Origin: Octopus sinensis
Lineage: Eukaryota
Reading direction: 5' to 3'
Assembly (NCBI RefSeq): GCF_006345805.1
Contig: NW_021836438.1
Coordinates: 1 to 24,468, forward strand
Length of the DNA: 24,468 nt
Shown: positions 6,777 to 24,230 of the stretch, piece after piece
Numbering within the stretch: position 1 is the stretch's first letter
How the letters are laid out: every line of letters starts with the position of its first letter
Made by a program: the position numbers and the translations under genes
Notes under the pieces: generated by a model
The model's input: only the letters and a program-made list of their open reading frames with translations
Databases searched by the model: none
What the model was told of the DNA's origin: nothing

Positions 6777-7406
6777 AATGTTCTGCATACTTTATATATA
6801 ATAAATACATTACTAGCAGGGAGAGAGTACTCCTACTAACACTCCATAAGCTAACAGGAACTAGGAACAGGAACTGGCCCAGTTTCGAGCTAGTTGGCTC
6901 TTCGCCAGGCACGCGTACCTGCGCAATGGGGTGATACCTAAGATCCACTTCTGACAGCAACATACTGTAATCAAAGTGGTCACTGATTTGCAACCAGCAA
7001 TGTAGCTAGTTATTAAATCTCAAGACGAGATAGTGTACTAACGTGTACTAAACAGTAAATCGAGTTGTCACATAAACGTAGCAGATGAATGTTACCACCA
7101 GTTTAACCCCAGGCAGATTCTCCACTAGCTGGTTTTCGATGCAATGTTCTGCATCCTTTATATAAAATACATCGCTAGCTTGAAACCGGGCCAGTCCCAC
7201 GTTCCTGTTAGCTGATAATGTGTTAGTAGGGGTTCGCTCCCCCTGCTAGCGATGTAACATATATAAAGGATGCAGAACGTTCCATCGAAAACCAGTTGGC
7301 GGAGAATCTGCCTGAGGTTAAACTAGTAGTAACATTCACCTGCCACTTTGATGTGGCAACTCGATTTACTGTTCAGTACACGTTACTACTGTATCTCGTC
7401 TTGAGA
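6777..7406 (-). mobile_element. Non-autonomous PLE-like structure: partial tandem of a ~366-bp unit plus an inverted copy
   Basis: Inverted arms at 7018-7179 and 7245-7406. 6777-6891 is also the reverse complement of about 7175-7281. aatgttctgcat recurs at 6777 and 7143. Degenerate HHR-like motif on minus at 6874-6908. Confidence 0.6.
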
Positions 7407-8787: not shown

Positions 8788-9285
8788 GGAGTCGAACGAC
8801 GATTTAACAAAATTCCTTTATTCTCGACATATGTTTCGAAGACTGCATATTCTCAATTCCGAAGGAATAAAAGGTGCATTATGCCGCCTTCTCATCAGGA
8901 AAGACAAGAAACTTATGTCAGCATCATGACGAACAAAAACTTTTAGATGACTTCCCACACGGCGTCCATAGTGATAATGAGTGTTTCTATAAAATATTCC
9001 GTTATAAGCAGTGACGTCAAATTTGGTTGGATGGAGGAGATTCTAAAAAGTTCAAGAGTTCAAAAATGGTTGGAAGGGGAAAGTTCTAAGAATAGGAGGG
9101 TGACAGAGAGCAAGTCATATGTATGGTGATGCGTTGTTGTTTGCTTTTGCTAATGAGATTGAGTGCCTATGTGTATGTATGTATATAACTGCATTCGTGT
9201 CTATATGTGTGTATGTGTGTGCGTGATTGTGTGTGTGGGGGGATAAATGCCAAATACATCTAGTGGTGAAGTGACAGGTTTGTGT
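8785..9285 (-). mobile_element. PLE-like terminal (pLTR) relic between (TA)n tracts
   Basis: Unique sequence bounded by TA tracts, with an HHR motif about 40 nt from the left boundary. No RT or GIY-YIG coding sequence seen. Confidence 0.5.
8815..8910 (-). ncRNA. Minimal type-I hammerhead ribozyme with canonical core
   Basis: Minus: tttc-CTGATGA-gaaggcggcata-[30 nt loop]-tatgcagtcttc-GAAAC-atat-GTC-gaga. Stem II pairs at 11 of 12 positions; stem III ACATATGT is palindromic; GUC site with predicted cut between 8826 and 8825. Confidence 0.8.
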
Positions 9286-9295
9286 ATATACATAA

Positions 9296-9328
<33 letters not shown>

Positions 9329-9400
9329 ATATATATAATATATATATATATGGAAAAAAATGTCAAGATAGGAAATGCTAAAATAACTATATAAAAAACA

Positions 9401-9442
9401 TTTCAGTACCGGTTTCAGTCATTGAGACTTTTTCAACTGAAA
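9401..9442 (-). ncRNA. Minimal type-I hammerhead ribozyme with U3-A8 core variant
   Basis: Minus: tttcag-TTGAAAA-agtc-tcaat-gact-GAAAC-cg-GTA-ctgaaa. Perfect 6-bp stem I, perfect 4-bp stem II, palindromic ACCGGT stem III, GUA site. Confidence 0.75.
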
Positions 9443-9696
9443 GTATGGAAAGCAATTAAATTTTGGAAGTTAAATTATAAGGCACAAAAAGAAAATTATT
9501 CTCCCCAGATATAACAGAATATGTTTCAATACTCGAACTCATATAAAGAATCTTGGAAACCAAATCCCAAAACGAAATACACACACACACGCACAAACAC
9601 ACACACCATATTATATATATATATATATATAATATATATATATATATACACGCACACACACACATATATATATATATATACATCCAGTCAGCTATC

Positions 9697-12700: not shown

Positions 12701-12863
12701 CGAATGAGATTTGGTCTCAGTAAAGCAAAGTTTTATTGTCTAGTTCATAGAAGTAGGGCTCGACGCTATGAAAAGACGGGTCATGGAAATAGCAGCAGAG
12801 ATAACAATGAAAATAAAGTTCTTACTAATAAGAGTAATCTTATAACACAGGAAAGGAGCAGAG

Positions 12864-14177
12864 TGCCCGATTGCCAAGAAAGGGAGCCGCGAAGACCCGC
12901 TTAACTACCGACCAGTTTCCCTTACTTCAATAATCAGCAAGATGTTCGAAACCATCCTCAAGAAAAGTATGTTGCTCCACCTCCAAAACACAGCCTCTAT
13001 CTCTGATTCCCAACACGGCTTCGTGCCGAAGAGATCATGCTTGACCAACTTACTGGTAATGGAAGAATTGGTGACACGTATTCTGGATGATGGTGATGCT
13101 GTTGACATCGTTTTATTGGACTTTGCCAAAGCTTTTGACTCGGTTAACCACCGCCTATTACTTGTCAAGCTTCAAGCATACAGTTTCCATCCGGATATTG
13201 TACGATGGGTTGGTGCTTTCCTCTCAGATTGCTCCTTCCAAGTCCAAGTTAATGGTTCGCTGTCCGACGTCTCCAGTGCGAGCAGTGGCGTGCCTCAAGG
13301 TTCAGTGCTTGGGCCCTTATTGTTTTTAGTCTTCATAAATGACTTGCCCGACGACCTCACGCAACACACCCTTCTATTTGCCGATGATGTCAAACTGGTC
13401 GCTCCTCGCAGTGATATCGTCGATCTTCGTCGATGCCTCCACCAAGTTTGGAGATGTTCTAACGAATGGGACCTGTGTCTGAACGTGTCAAAGTGCTGTC
13501 ATCTGCCTGTTGGCTCCTCTCCTGCAACTCAACTTGATTTCGAGCCGGGTCGTCTGCTGCAGGAGAGGACCGACCAGGTAAAAGACCTGGGTATCTTGGT
13601 GAATTCTTCCTTTTCGCCTTCGGCCCAATGCGTCCATGCTTCCAACAAAGCACACGGAGTTCTGTTTTTGATTCGACGGTCATTCGGAATGCTCACAGCA
13701 GCCATATTCCTACCGCTCTATGTCACGCTAGTGAGACCCATATTGGAGTACGGGATTCAAGCCTCTTCTCCTTATCTCCTCAAAGACATACATCATCTCG
13801 AAAGAATCCAAAAGCTGGCTACCCGCATGGTTCTTGATCTCAAGCATTTGTCTTATGAAGAAAGGCTGAAGACGCTCGACCTTTATTCTCTAGAAAAACG
13901 ACGACGCCGTGCTGATCTCATTCTCGCTCACAACATCATAAGCGGAAAGTGTAACCTCTCGAAAGAGCTGTTCTTCACTCCTACTCCAGAGCGTCGGCTG
14001 CGGGGTCACTCCAAAAAGCTCTATCTGCGACGATTTCATCGCAATCGAAGAAGAGGGGCTTTCTCCGTCCGGGTTGCGGATCCGTGGAATAAGCTGCCGG
14101 ACGAGATAGTGAAGATGCCACCGACCGCTCGGTTCAAAGACTCTCTTGACCAGAAATGGCCTGGACTCTTTGCATGA
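12864..14177 (+). CDS. Non-LTR reverse transcriptase (ORF2 fragment, no endonuclease domain)
   Basis: Motifs NYRPVSLTS, QHGF..RSCLTNL, LDFAKAFDSV, SGVPQGSVLGPLLF, LFADD, KDLG, RPILEY and RGHSKKL. No stops or frameshifts; the ATG at 12942 is internal. Confidence 0.85.
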   Translation, partial: CPIAKKGSREDPLNYRPVSLTSIISKMFETILKKSMLLHLQNTASISDSQHGFVPKRSCLTNLLVMEELVTRILDDGDAVDIVLLDFAKAFDSVNHRLLLVKLQAYSFHPDIVRWVGAFLSDCSFQVQVNGSLSDVSSASSGVPQGSVLGPLLFLVFINDLPDDLTQHTLLFADDVKLVAPRSDIVDLRRCLHQVWRCSNEWDLCLNVSKCCHLPVGSSPATQLDFEPGRLLQERTDQVKDLGILVNSSFSPSAQCVHASNKAHGVLFLIRRSFGMLTAAIFLPLYVTLVRPILEYGIQASSPYLLKDIHHLERIQKLATRMVLDLKHLSYEERLKTLDLYSLEKRRRRADLILAHNIISGKCNLSKELFFTPTPERRLRGHSKKLYLRRFHRNRRRGAFSVRVADPWNKLPDEIVKMPPTARFKDSLDQKWPGLFA

Positions 14178-19629: not shown

Positions 19630-21830
19630 GGAATAAGATAGAACCTGTGCCAAAACAAAAATGGAAGATGTAGTTGCATGGGTGTCAAAATTGCCAAAGT
19701 GGAAAGCGGCAGGAGCAGATGGAATTCAAGGCTACTGGCTCAAGTGGTTTAGGTCAACACACAATCCAAGTGAGTTGCAATTAGACAATTGCCTACAGTG
19801 TGGTGCAGTTCCGGAGTGGATTGTAGAGGGAAAGACAATATTGTTGATGGAAGATTAGTCAAAGGGCAATGAGGCTGGCAATTACCGACCCATTGCTTGT
19901 CTTAACCTCCTTTGGAAAGTATTAACAGGTACCCTCACAGGGAAAATATATACGTTCCTTGCGGAAAACAATCTAACCCCAGAAGAGCAAAAGGGATGCC
20001 GAAATGGATCCAAGGGTACCAAGGACCACCTTATGATAGACAAGGTTGTAATGGAGATCTGTAAACGGTACCAATATACTTGTGCATGGCTTGGATAGAC
20101 TTTAGAAAGGCTTACGACATATTGCCGCATTCGTGGATTTTGGAAACACTCGACATGTGTGGAATAGCTGACAACGTGAGTGCACTCATTAAGAACAGTA
20201 TGCCTAGCTGAAAAATACGTCTTTCCTGTAAAAACCAGCACTTTGCCGAGGTAACAATCAAAAGAAGTATCTTTAAGGAAGACTCTTGTTCACCTTTATT
20301 ATTTGTTATAACGCGTGCTATGAGCTCAGAAAGAATGAACTCGTCTCAACCTCCTTCTCTTCATGGATGATTTAAAACAGAGCCTGAAATGGAGAGATTG
20401 GTTGAGACGGTGCAGCAAGGAAACGGGGATGGAATTCATCATCTCAAAGTGTAGTGCTCACTTTGAAACGGGAGAAAAGAGCAGATTGTAGGAGTACAGA
20501 ATTGCCAAACAGAGAAAGAATGGAAAACACAGATGATGATGGGTACAAGTTCCTTGGGATCCTAGAGCTGGACAATATCTTGCACAGATAAATGAAAGAC
20601 AAGATCATCACTGCATATTTGAAGCGCCTCACACTTCTCTTGAAATCAAAACTTAACTCAAGGAACCTTGTGACTGCCATCAACATATGGGCTGTTGCTG
20701 TAGTCCGCTATAGTGCAATGGTCACAAGCGGAGATTAACCAACTCGATCGCACTACTCGAAGGACAATAACAATGTATGGTGTCCTCCATCCTAAGGCAA
20801 ATGAAGAGAGGTAAAAATGGATGTGGGCTGATCAGCGCGCGAGAGTGCATCAACAGTGAAAGAAGAAACATCGCAGAATATTTGCTGAATAGCAAACAAG
20901 ACCGCCTACAATATGCTGCTAATGCAGAAAGATTCACCAAAATTGGACTTGAGAGTGCTCGTGAATTCCGATCACGAATAGCCAACGAGAGAGGAGACCC
21001 TACTCCGCATGAAATTACATGATCAGTTCCACCGTGAAACTAACAACTTAAAAGCCCAGGAAATATCGTGGAGGTCGCTCAGCAAGAGTGACCTAAAGAA
21101 GAACACTGAAAGCCTAATCATCGCTGCCCAGAATCAGGCATTGAATACTAACTCAGTGAAATGGGATATATACCATACAAGTGCAACGAACCTCTGCAGA
21201 ATGTATGAGAAGAGGGTCGAAAGCGTGACTCACATTGTTAGTGCTTGTGAAAGTCTTGGGCAGAAAGAGTAGAAACGTAGAGACGACAAGGTAACCCCAA
21301 AATTCTCTGGCTACTATATCAGAAGTATGAATACGAGGTAACAGCTGCTTGGTACCAACATACACCGGAAAAGGTAAGGGACGAAAAAGGGAGGGCAACA
21401 ATCCTCTGGGTCTTTGACTTCCAGACGGACAAAGTGTTAGAGCACTTAAGGCTGGATATAGTAACATTTAGGAGGGATAAACAAGAGTGCCTAATAATCG
21501 ACGTGACAGTGCGAGATCAGCATATTAACATGAAAGAAAAAAGGAGACCTGAGAATTGAGATCGCTAAGGTGTGGCATCTACCAGAGTCAAGCATAAAGG
21601 TTGTCCCTATTGTCATCGGAGTATTGGGTTCAATACCATCCAACCTGAAAAAAACATCTGGAAACACAACATCCTAGGCGTACTGCAAGAACTGGCATTA
21701 CTTGGAACTGCACACATATTGCGTAAAGCACTGTCTGCCTAAGGTCATTCTTATGATTTGACAATCTCCCGCTAGACACAATATCTTCAATCAACAACAT
21801 GACGATATTGGATACTGAGCGGCGTCTTAA
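19630..21830 (+). mobile_element. Decayed R4/Dong-clade RLE non-LTR retrotransposon (RT, CCHC, restriction-like endonuclease, 3' UTR)
   Basis: Across frames: LPKWKAAGADGIQGYWLK, NYRPIACLNLLWK, QKGCRNGSKGTKDHLMID, AWIDFRKAYD, LFMDDLK, YKFLGILE, ESLIIAAQNQAL, CRM...ESVTHIVSAC, ILWVFDFQTDK..RLDIV, VVPIVIGVLG, ALLGTAHILRK. Several stops and frameshifts; ends in (TAA)n. Confidence 0.9.
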
Positions 21831-22005
21831 ATAATAATAATAATGATAATGAATAATAATAATAATAAGAATAAGAAGAAGAAGAAGAAGAAAAGAAGAA
21901 GACTAAGAAATAAGAAGAAGAAAGAAGAAGAGAAGAAGAAAGAAGAAGAAGAAGAAGAAAAAGAAGAGGAGGAAAAAGAAGAAGAACAACAACAACAACA
22001 GCAAT
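21831..22005. repeat. (TAA)n/(GAA)n/(CAA)n compound microsatellite
   Basis: Read directly from the sequence. Confidence 0.95.
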
Positions 22006-22266
22006 ACTAATGTGATTTGTATGATTTGTGTGATTTGTGCAATTTGTATGATGCCATTCGGACAGATATTACGGAAAGTGACCTAGGGGTACACCTTGAA
22101 AAACCGGATAAAAATTTAATCTACCTTTATATATGAACGACAATGATCTGTGTGAAGAGAGAACGTAAAATGAATGGTCGGATTTCAACGGTTATTCAGT
22201 AAGGATATTGGGATGGTGTTTGGGATGAAAACGTGAAATATGCTTATCATAAAAAAAAGGCAAATA

Positions 22267-22698
22267 GGCGCAGGAGTGGCTGTGTGGTAAGTAGCTTGCT
22301 AACCAACCACATTGTTCCGGGTTCAGTCCCACTGCGTGGCATCTTGGGCAAGTGTCTTCTGCTATAGCCCCAGGCCGACCAATGCCTTGTGAGTGGATTT
22401 GGTAGACAGAAACTGAAAGAAGCCTGTCGTATATATGTATATATATATATGTGTGTGTGTGTGTATGTGTGTGAGTGTTTGTGTATGTGTGTTTGTCCCT
22501 CTAGCATTGCTTGACAACCGATGCTGGTGAGTTTATGTCCCTGTCACTTAGCGGTTCGGCAAAAAGAGACCGATAGAATAAGTACTGGGCTTACAAAGAA
22601 TAAGTCCCGGGGTCGATTTGCTCGACTAAAGGCGGTGCTCCAGCATGGCCGCAGTGAAATGACTGAATCAAGTAAAAAGAGTAAAGAGTAAGAGAGTA
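22267..22698 (+). mobile_element. Full-length tRNA-derived SINE with internal (TA)/(TG) microsatellite (octopus-type)
   Basis: A-box tggctgtgtggtaag, B-box ggttcagtccc, CORE-like catcttgggcaagtgtctt, internal microsatellite at 22430-22492, tail gctccagcatggccgcag..gactgaatcaagtaaa followed by (agagtaa)n. Confidence 0.9.
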
Positions 22699-23192
22699 AT
22701 GGCAAGAGAATTAAGGATGTTGAGATTAATGATTATAAGTATGTGAGTATTTTGTAGTACGACATAATCGAGGATAGTGAGACGAAGGAAAGATTTAGGC
22801 GGGAATACTTAAGAACCAAATTAATTTATGGAAAGCAGAACAGGGCAATGAATACATAGGTTGTTTCTCGAATGAGATACGGTGCAGTTGTTAGATGGAC
22901 GAAGAACGAACTTGAGGAAACACAGAAAACAAAAAAAGTAATAAGACTGAAAACAAAGAACTACACCTTAAAAGCGATATAGAAAGGCTATATATACAAT
23001 GTATAGAAGGTGGTAGAGGCCTTATACAGCTGGAAAACTATTATAAAATAACCACCATAGGACTGCAAAAATATTTACTTCAAAAGGAAGGAAAACTGAT
23101 ACAAATAGCGGCAAAACACGAGCAAAACAAAAAGCTGTTCTCAGTATTTAAGGAAGCTGACAAATACAAACAAGAAATTTTACACGTAACAA

Positions 23193-23328
23193 ATAAGAAG
23201 AAGAAGAAGAAAGAAGAAGAAGAAAGAAGAAGAAGAAGAGAAGAAGAAAGAAGAAGAAGAAGAAGAAAAGAAAAGAAGAAGAAGAAGAAGAAGAAGAAGA
23301 AGAAGAAGAAGAAGAAGAAGAAGAAGAG
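23193..23328. repeat. (GAA)n microsatellite
   Basis: Read directly from the sequence. Confidence 0.95.
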
Positions 23329-24230
23329 AACAAAAAGCTATAAAAGACAATGAAATCCAAACTAAAAACTAGAACAGCTATGGACCATGATAAAACGATG
23401 GCAAATACTGGACTGAAATAAATGCAAAAGAATATACAAAAGAAAAATCCCAGCAATGGTTGAGAAGCTCAGGACTCAAAGCAGAGACAGAGGATTTTTA
23501 ATTGCAGCACAAGACCAAAGCCTCCCCACCAGAAATTACCAAAACATATAATGAAAAGAAATATACATGTAACTGCAGAATATGTGGAGATGGACAAGAA
23601 ACAATAAATCATATTATCTCTGGTTCCCAGTCCTGGCTAAGAAGGAATATATTCACAGACAGACAGAGTTGGAACCTACATACATTGGAAGCTATGCCAA
23701 CATTATGGAATGACAACAGAAAAAAGATGGTATAGGCACATCCGAGAAAAGGTCACAGAAAACGAGAAAGCAACCATACTCTGGATATGCAGATCACAGA
23801 TATAGAGAATTAAGGCCAACAGACCAAATATAGTTGTCAGAGATCATGAAGAAAAAAATGCTTTCTACTGATGTATCAATACCAGCAGATGACAACAAAA
23901 TGTCTCTAAAGAAATGGAGAAACTTTCAAATACAAAGACCTGGAAATACAGGAGACTTGAATGTGGACTCAAAAACAGAAACAATTCCTATCATAGTAGG
24001 TACATTAGGCGTGATAAAAAATATTCAGACAAATACATAACAAAATCATCCGGACTTACAACACATATACATACGAATATCGCACTACTGGGCACTGCTC
24101 ACATCCTACGCAAACAAACTTTCAATACAGTAACCATCAGAGCATCACAACAAAACACAAGCACAACCCAAGCCACACAAAGCCGCGCTTGGTAGTGATG
24201 TGAAAACACGATATAAAAAAAAGCACTGAA

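What the first reader, a model, noticed from the sequence alone, without database searches (positions are those of the whole stretch)
9401..9442. Compact 42-nt hammerhead ribozyme with a compensated U3-A8 core that CUGANGA searches would miss
Seen: minus strand UUUCAG-UUGAAAA-AGUC-UCAAU-GACU-GAAAC-CG-GUA-CUGAAA with perfect stems I and II and a palindromic ACCGGU stem III. Established: C3 and G8 form a tertiary pair in HHRs, U3-A8 double variants can retain activity, and minimal palindromic-stem-III HHRs typify Penelope-like elements and are proposed to cleave as dimers. Inference: the double change is compensation rather than decay, marking a microsatellite-associated PLE/retrozyme family with a non-canonical core.
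Basis: partly seen in the sequence, partly recalled or inferred. Interest (0 to 1): 0.8.

Follow-up and report, generated by a model that had tools for sequence, protein, structure and literature searches.

The report
Penelope retrotransposon's variant hammerhead ribozyme
This is a broken-off end of a jumping gene (a Penelope-like retrotransposon with over 3,000 copies in this genome) that carries a hammerhead ribozyme motif with a swapped core base pair already described in other animals; the motif likely cuts its own RNA only weakly, and this copy is probably inert.

Summary
The motif is at 9401-9442 (minus strand) as described. It lies in a ~115-nt, 5'-truncated end of an endonuclease-bearing Penelope-like element (PLE) next to a (TA)n tract. 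Under one search pattern the genome holds 3,168 U3-A8 copies, 42 U3-G8, 29 C3-A8 and 3 C3-G8, so U3-A8 is the family state, and it persists in a young subfamily with open 784-codon RT/GIY-YIG frames. Positions 3 and 8 pair in 32 of 32 motif types from related PLE loci (18 C-G, 11 U-A, 2 A-U, 1 U-G). Two stem pairs change on both sides between subfamilies. So this is compensation, not decay. It is not new: U3-A8 PLE hammerheads, with the same core heptamer, were published in 2014. The perfect 6-bp stem I is a minority variant (4 of 100 listed copies). Additions here: insertion 5' junctions peak modestly at the predicted cut (14, against 2-8 at six control sites), hinting at cleavage in vivo in about 1% of templates; U3 can pair with A17, a likely brake. 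Cleavage itself is untested.

The parts
9401..9442 (-). Type I minimal hammerhead ribozyme motif with U3-A8 core; predicted cut after the GUA triplet, between 9407 and 9406
   Evidence: Sequence; only descriptor hit in the window, 0.01 per shuffle
9430..9436 (-). Core 5' strand U3-A9 (U3 at 9436, A8 at 9431)
   Evidence: Family state in 3,168 of 3,242 copies; same heptamer in S. mansoni(4)
9417..9429 (-). Stem II (4 bp, 5-nt loop); closing pair 10.1-11.1 is A-U here and G-C in the young subfamily
9408..9413 (.). Palindrome ACCGGT (A15.1 to U16.1), the minimal stem III, predicted to pair only between two copies
   Evidence: Sequence; duplex -8.3 kcal/mol and cofold
9352..9468 (-). 5'-truncated 3' end (pLTR) of an EN+ Penelope-like element, window-type subfamily; ends at the short 3' end point, without the optional tail
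   Evidence: longer copies run into RT and GIY-YIG frames
9285..9351 (.). (TA)n microsatellite abutting the element's 3' end, the likely insertion target
   Evidence: same junction in many copies

Best explanation
The motif is a minimal type I hammerhead with a compensated U3-A8 core in the terminal repeat of an endonuclease-bearing Penelope-like retrotransposon, likely a weak, dimer- or protein-dependent self-cleaver, and the window holds a probably inert truncated copy of it. Shown: the element is a 4.37-kb unit in tandem and inverted arrays, with the motif in the sense-strand pLTR about 120 nt upstream of ORF1 of the next unit; insertions end 64 or 98 nt downstream of the cut site, and nearly all copies run through the intact motif. 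Inferred: reverse transcription starts at those two end points, so most templates were uncut (or religated) there. Inferred: in tandem transcripts two motifs pair through the palindrome, or the element's protein folds the RNA, and a small share is cut after GUA, leaving unit-length RNA and the few insertions (about 1%) that begin at the cut. Inferred: the weaker U3-A8 pair, the 3-bp stem I and a competing U3-A17 pair keep cleavage low, which would spare the template.
For: Core state 3,168 U3-A8, 42 U3-G8, 29 C3-A8, 3 C3-G8. Young subfamily 1,902 exact copies, first 100 listed all A8, with open 784-codon RT-ZnF-GIY-YIG frames in 3 of 10 fetched stretches. 32 of 32 motif types in 95 related loci pair at 3-8 with no such constraint in the descriptor; shuffles give 14.9 Watson-Crick pairs against 31; 63 of 64 hits were on the sense strand. 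Between three subfamilies 10.1-11.1 goes A-U to G-C with G-U intermediates (first 100 rows by hand: 80 G-C, 12 A-U, 6 G-U, 2 A-C), the third stem I pair goes A.A to C-G, and one stem II pair U-A to U-G; 43 of 117 flank and loop columns differ and 0 of the 7 core columns not fixed by my patterns. Independent 5' junctions: 14 at +1 and 11 at -1, against 2, 2, 2, 4, 5 and 8 at six sites 3 or more nt away, not counting +3 (scored in 61, 70, 75, 84). Published PLE hammerheads cleave weakly as dimers or only with the PLE protein.
Against: No cleavage data and no raw RNA reads were available. In a full double-mutant scan of another hammerhead only C3G/G8C was rescued. The predicted fold pairs U3 with A17, and in flanking context stem I has probability about 0.01; none of the 11 related U3-A8 types has A17. 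The junction peak is about three- to fourfold over a variable background: TA-starting control sites gave 5 and 8, 5 of the 14 events are internal jumps, and two control sites were rescored by eye. U16.1C occurs in a deep contig of organism D and in G000 copies L120 and L163. Cleavage was dispensable for insertion in vitro in another PLE, and no RNA ends mapped to its cut site.
Confidence: 0.72

Rival explanations
1. The motif is a true hammerhead by descent but no longer cleaves in this lineage; it is kept as a structural or protein-binding element of the pLTR near the reverse-transcription start.
For: U3-A17 trap and low in-context stem I probability; U3-A8 not rescued in one scan; cleavage dispensable in vitro for another PLE; U16.1C variants; about 99% of copies run through the site.
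Against: The core is unchanged across three subfamilies while flanks and loop 2 change, and stem pairs change on both sides; junctions peak at the predicted cut; natural U3-A8 covariation was reported with earlier in vitro activity.
Confidence: 0.2
2. The ribozyme cleaves well and the unit-length RNA is ligated into a circle; reverse transcription through the religated junction gives the intact motif and the tandem arrays.
For: Head-to-tail 4.37-4.40 kb units with one motif per unit; proposed for PLEs in PMC4209133.
Against: Read-through of existing tandems explains the same arrays; the minimal stems predict low activity; no RNA data here.
Confidence: 0.06
3. A decayed canonical hammerhead or a chance look-alike in AT-rich DNA.
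For: Fold z-score only -1.67; no Rfam hit.
Against: U3-A8 in 3,168 of 3,242 copies including the youngest; same position and strand as hammerheads of related PLEs; 3-8 covariation.
Confidence: 0.02

Closest known systems
U3-A8 minimal hammerheads of Schistosoma mansoni Cercyon PLEs (Cervera and de la Pena 2014, PMC4209133)
   Same: Type I minimal motif in a PLE terminal repeat, U3-A8 core (about 1,300 hits reported), same heptamer in S. mansoni(4), palindromic 15.2-16.2, mostly single truncated copies.
   Different: No extra base between positions 9 and 10.1, a 4-bp stem II, a 2-nt longer palindrome, A17 instead of U17, and A-U at 10.1-11.1 in the window-type subfamily.
PAc (Poseidon, Anolis) hammerhead (Frangieh et al. 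2024, PMC11167929)
   Same: Hammerhead in the pLTR upstream of two element end points 30-40 nt apart (here 64 and 98 nt after the cut); AT-rich targets.
   Different: PAc has C3-G8 and the ORF starts inside the ribozyme; here U3-A8, ORF1 starts about 120 nt after the cut, and there is a Zn-finger linker. PAc showed no RNA ends at the cut; here DNA junctions peak there modestly.
Neptune/Nematis-type EN+ Penelope-like elements (as described in Craig et al. 2021, PMC8557442)
   Same: RT, then a CX2-5CxxC linker, then GIY-YIG; pLTRs, tandem and inverted copies, tail, microsatellite bias, hammerhead near the 3' end.
   Different: The RT frame has no start of its own at the 5' end and overlaps a 411-codon upstream ORF in the -1 frame, whereas that paper's abstract describes canonical EN+ PLEs as single-ORF; its Fig. 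1 legend allows a frameshifted ORF1, and I could not see for which clades.
Non-LTR retrozymes of animals
   Same: Type I hammerhead with a small palindromic stem III; proposed to derive from PLE pLTRs (bioRxiv 10.64898/2026.07.22.740005, passages).
   Different: This family has autonomous 4.37-kb members, and the window copy is a lone truncated end. A separate ~359-nt tandem family with a canonical core in the same genome fits the retrozyme description better.

Membership tests
Type I minimal hammerhead (PLE type) | Core with a 3-8 Watson-Crick pair, U4 G5 A6, A9, G12 A13 A14, A15.1-U16.1 and H17 | tested here: met
   3-8 is U-A, covarying in 32 of 32 related types
Type I minimal hammerhead (PLE type) | Stem II and open stem I flanking the core, supported by changes that keep pairing | tested here: met
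   Stem II 4 bp; stem I 6 bp in the window, 3 bp plus mismatch in most copies; two two-sided changes between subfamilies
Type I minimal hammerhead (PLE type) | Minimal palindromic stem III able to pair between two copies | tested here: met
   6-nt palindrome; cofold forms the intermolecular helix; prediction only
Type I minimal hammerhead (PLE type) | Consensus extras of Cervera 2014: unpaired base between 9 and 10.1, and G10.1-C11.1 | tested here: not met
   No extra base (also absent in L187, L189, L266); A-U in the window copy, G-C in the young subfamily. These are consensus tendencies, not catalytic requirements
Type I minimal hammerhead (PLE type) | Match to an Rfam hammerhead model | tested here: not met
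   No hammerhead row
Type I minimal hammerhead (PLE type) | Self-cleavage after N17 | not testable with these tools
   Only indirect: junction peak at +1 and -1; all laid runs were contigs
EN+ Penelope-like element | [quoted passage not shown] | tested here: met
   784-codon frames; RVT_1 above cut-off, GIY-YIG 21.1 bits against cut-off 22.6 in L135 and 23.5 in L011
EN+ Penelope-like element | pLTR, tandem and inverted copies, optional 30-40 nt tail | tested here: met
   L135, L136: 4.37-4.40 kb units and an inverted truncated copy; 3' ends at +64 and +98
Neptune/Nematis clade | CX2-5CxxC linker between RT and endonuclease | tested here: met
   C-x4-C-x2-C seen in the translations; feature as given
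Neptune/Nematis clade | Single ORF | tested here: not met
   411-codon ORF1 overlaps the RT frame by about 60 nt in the -1 frame
Neptune/Nematis clade | RT phylogeny with named reference elements | not tested
   No named reference sequences were in hand; the tree holds unnamed relatives only, so the clade name is provisional
Non-LTR retrozyme | Short non-coding unit in tandem, no protein-coding member | tested here: not met
   Family has full coding units; the window copy is single and truncated

The most novel reading that the evidence does not exclude
This PLE lineage uses a self-braked hammerhead (U3-A8 core plus a U3-A17 trap) that cuts a small share of transposition templates in vivo, and the cuts are recorded in the genome as insertions that begin at the cleavage site. 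That would be direct genomic evidence that a PLE hammerhead acts during retrotransposition, in a young, high-copy, two-ORF frameshifting element.
Probability: 0.4. Interest if true: 0.6.

Novelty: new member of a known kind. Interest (0 to 1): 0.33.

Why it matters
The core variant is known, so the motif alone is ordinary. The value is practical: a young family with thousands of copies, open reading frames and three subfamilies offers a natural series for asking what PLE hammerheads do, an open question (one PLE needs its protein to cleave and does not need cleavage to insert). It also shows that CUGANGA-only searches miss a large share of PLE hammerheads: 11 of 32 related types, and over 3,000 copies here against 157 matches to a canonical pattern with the same stem III.

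Tried and rejected
Rfam: no hammerhead match. PDB profile search with the ORF2 alignment: no match. Earlier findings of the scan: nothing. RNA runs: no RNA holder listed; all runs laid were contigs, so RNA ends could not be tested. A C3-G8 ancestral subfamily inside the genome: only 3 copies; enriched over all copies (Fisher p 0.009) but not within the older subfamily, where both single changes are commoner (p about 0.09 with an estimated denominator); not accepted. G8 copies often share a flank variant (about 7 of 15 rows), a possible U3-G8 sublineage; not resolved. A shifted register in which a canonical CUGAUGA lies 3 nt upstream (L091, L098/L099): two loci only and no stem I, so decay. Age order of subfamilies: divergences 0.069, 0.109 and 0.052 are biased by the search patterns and truncated rows, so only 'youngest' (open frames, near-identical copies) is claimed. 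Tree: quick tree only; labels of L211, L237 and L240 were taken from the next element downstream and are wrong, so its change counts are not used. The excess at -2 (9 junctions) was dropped as evidence because TA-starting control sites gave 5 and 8. Control (0 matches) could match the young subfamily only and is left out of the comparison.

Full report
Observation. A hammerhead descriptor finds only this hit in the window, against 0.01 per shuffled window. Folding energy is unremarkable (z -1.67) and Rfam has no hammerhead match.

What carries it. The stretch 9352-9468 is a repeat; a 23-mer that leaves positions 3 and 8 free occurs 681 times in the 2.72-Gb assembly, control 0. The genome is likely an octopus, my inference from assembly size, about 30 large contigs and the microsatellite load; no tool named it. 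Six of the first 30 loci extend upstream into reverse transcriptase and GIY-YIG sequence. A protein search found a young subfamily; 3 of 10 fetched stretches hold an open 784-codon RT, Zn-finger linker, GIY-YIG frame. Units are 4.37-4.40 kb, head to tail, with inverted truncated copies, and end 64 or 98 nt after the predicted cut. These are the pLTR, tandem and tail features of EN+ PLEs (PMC8557442, passages). The window copy is a short 3' end abutting (TA)n at 9285-9351; an unrelated repeat begins near 9468. The clade name Neptune is provisional: the linker motif fits Neptune or Nematis and no named references were tested.

Is U3-A8 the family state? Yes. Under one pattern: 3,168 U3-A8, 42 U3-G8, 29 C3-A8, 3 C3-G8. 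In 30 loci picked without regard to the core, 21 read the same heptamer in register and none C3-G8. The young subfamily has 1,902 exact copies, the first 100 listed all A8. The three C3-G8 copies are compatible with independent decay in the older subfamily.

Is it compensation? In 95 loci of related PLEs from metagenome and genome contigs, a descriptor with no 3-8 constraint found 32 distinct motif types: 18 C-G, 11 U-A, 2 A-U, 1 U-G and no mismatch; shuffles gave 14.9 Watson-Crick pairs against 31. Many types come from one assembly, so they are not independent. The nearest relatives with a motif (40-48% identity; L188, L189, L191, L262, L263) have C3-G8 and two at 37-39% have U3-A8; U3-A8 also sits on two other well-supported branches (three labels there are wrong and its change counts are not used). 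Inside the genome three subfamilies differ at 43 of 117 flank and loop columns and at 0 of the 7 core columns my patterns left free (10 more were fixed by the patterns). Five stem columns differ: 10.1-11.1 A-U to G-C, with G-U intermediates; the third stem I pair A.A to C-G; one U-A to U-G. The 10.1 and 11.1 variants also appear in contigs of three other runs. The window's 6-bp stem I is a minority variant, 4 of 100.

Is it new? No. Cervera and de la Pena reported U3-A8 in S. mansoni Cercyon PLEs, about 1,300 hits (PMC4209133, parts 1-2 of 4 read); supplement file 2 shows the same heptamer (passages; file 1 not searchable, so an octopus entry there cannot be excluded). Perreault et al. reported natural U3-A8 covariation and cited earlier in vitro activity (PMC3088659, passages). 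Six literature searches listed no paper on this octopus family; a 2026 Octopus vulgaris repeat annotation does not use the words hammerhead or ribozyme (PMC13282606, passages). A giant squid genome paper that mentions hammerhead once was seen only in the listing.

How it likely works. Stem III cannot close in one molecule; two copies cofold through the palindrome. Published metazoan PLE motifs cleave weakly as dimers, and the Anolis PAc motif cleaves only with its protein, is dispensable for insertion in vitro, and reverse transcription starts at the two element end points (PMC11167929, passages and section 3 part 2). By analogy reverse transcription here starts 64 or 98 nt downstream of the cut, so the many copies with an intact motif came from uncut or religated RNA. 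The predicted fold pairs U3 with A17, the counterpart of the C3-G17 trap described for G17 hammerheads (PMC3884650, passages); none of the 11 related U3-A8 types has A17, a small sample. Against activity, a full double-mutant scan of a type III hammerhead rescued only C3G/G8C (PMC9901934, passages).

A genomic test for cleavage. If some templates were cut, cDNAs would end at +1. I searched for copies whose two bases before a chosen position both differ from the element, and scored each as point change or junction. Independent junctions (of matches): -36, a TA start, 5 of 14; -15, 2 of 4; -10, 2 of 9; -3, 2 of 15; -2, a TA start, 9 of 15; -1, 11 of 30; +1, 14 of 22; +2, 7 of 16; +3, 5 of 11; +22, a TA start, 8 of 16 by eye (the rule gave 10 with a faulty reference); +24, 4 of 26 by eye (6 by rule) (scored in 61, 70, 75, 84). 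The predicted cut is the highest of these 11 positions, about three- to fourfold over background. Correcting for the filter gives roughly 30 copies, about 1% of the family (my estimate). Nine of the 14 join foreign or inverted sequence and five are internal jumps. A stall at the palindrome, microhomology and the rise of short copies near the 3' end are not excluded, so this is suggestive only.

Verdict. A real, compensated, PLE-borne minimal hammerhead of a published type, in a large and recently active family; the window copy is a truncated relic. New member of a known kind; interest 0.33.

Noticed in passing
L135 4683-8206 (also L133, L134, L136): The full element has two ORFs: a 411-codon ORF1 with no Pfam match overlaps the RT frame by about 60 nt in the -1 frame, with a U UUU UUA heptamer (a known slippery type, recalled) in the overlap. 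An ORF1 relative follows the hammerhead in L185. Likely programmed frameshifting in an EN+ PLE.
   Followed up: partly
L062-L090, e.g. L070 and L081: A separate family of ~359-nt tandem and inverted non-coding units with a canonical C3-G8 hammerhead and the same stem III palindrome; most of the 157 matches; looks like a non-LTR retrozyme.
   Followed up: partly
L135 4531-4597 laid on runs X13 and X20: Clusters of A-to-G-only changes on the element's sense strand, across the ribozyme core and just downstream, in two studies: resembles ADAR hyper-editing of transcripts from inverted copies. Contigs only; RNA is a guess.
   Followed up: partly
L215, L237, L240; L222, L231-L233: Related PLE hammerheads with an A3-U8 core, and a multi-copy tandem family with U3-G8.
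   Followed up: no
L383-L410: About 16 of 30 matches carry the same 12-nt deletion between two short direct repeats, which removes stem III and the cut site: a recurrent decay route.
   Followed up: no
window 12846-14177 (+): 443-codon open frame with RVT_1 (E 8e-32), a LINE-type reverse transcriptase fragment.
   Followed up: no
window 20700-24200 (+): Broken pieces that look like a non-LTR retrotransposon, interrupted by triplet microsatellites; only a weak zf-RVT match at 20982-21269.
   Followed up: no
window 7018-7179 and 7245-7406: Inverted repeat with 162-nt arms, 88% complementary, 65 nt apart; MITE-like or an inverted retroelement insertion.
   Followed up: no
window 9468-9579: Fragment of another dispersed repeat, with inverted copies in L020 and L021, directly against the PLE's 5' truncation point.
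   Followed up: partly
L262-L279: Eukaryote-type PLE contigs filed inside bacterial metagenome-assembled genomes, likely host contamination.
   Followed up: no
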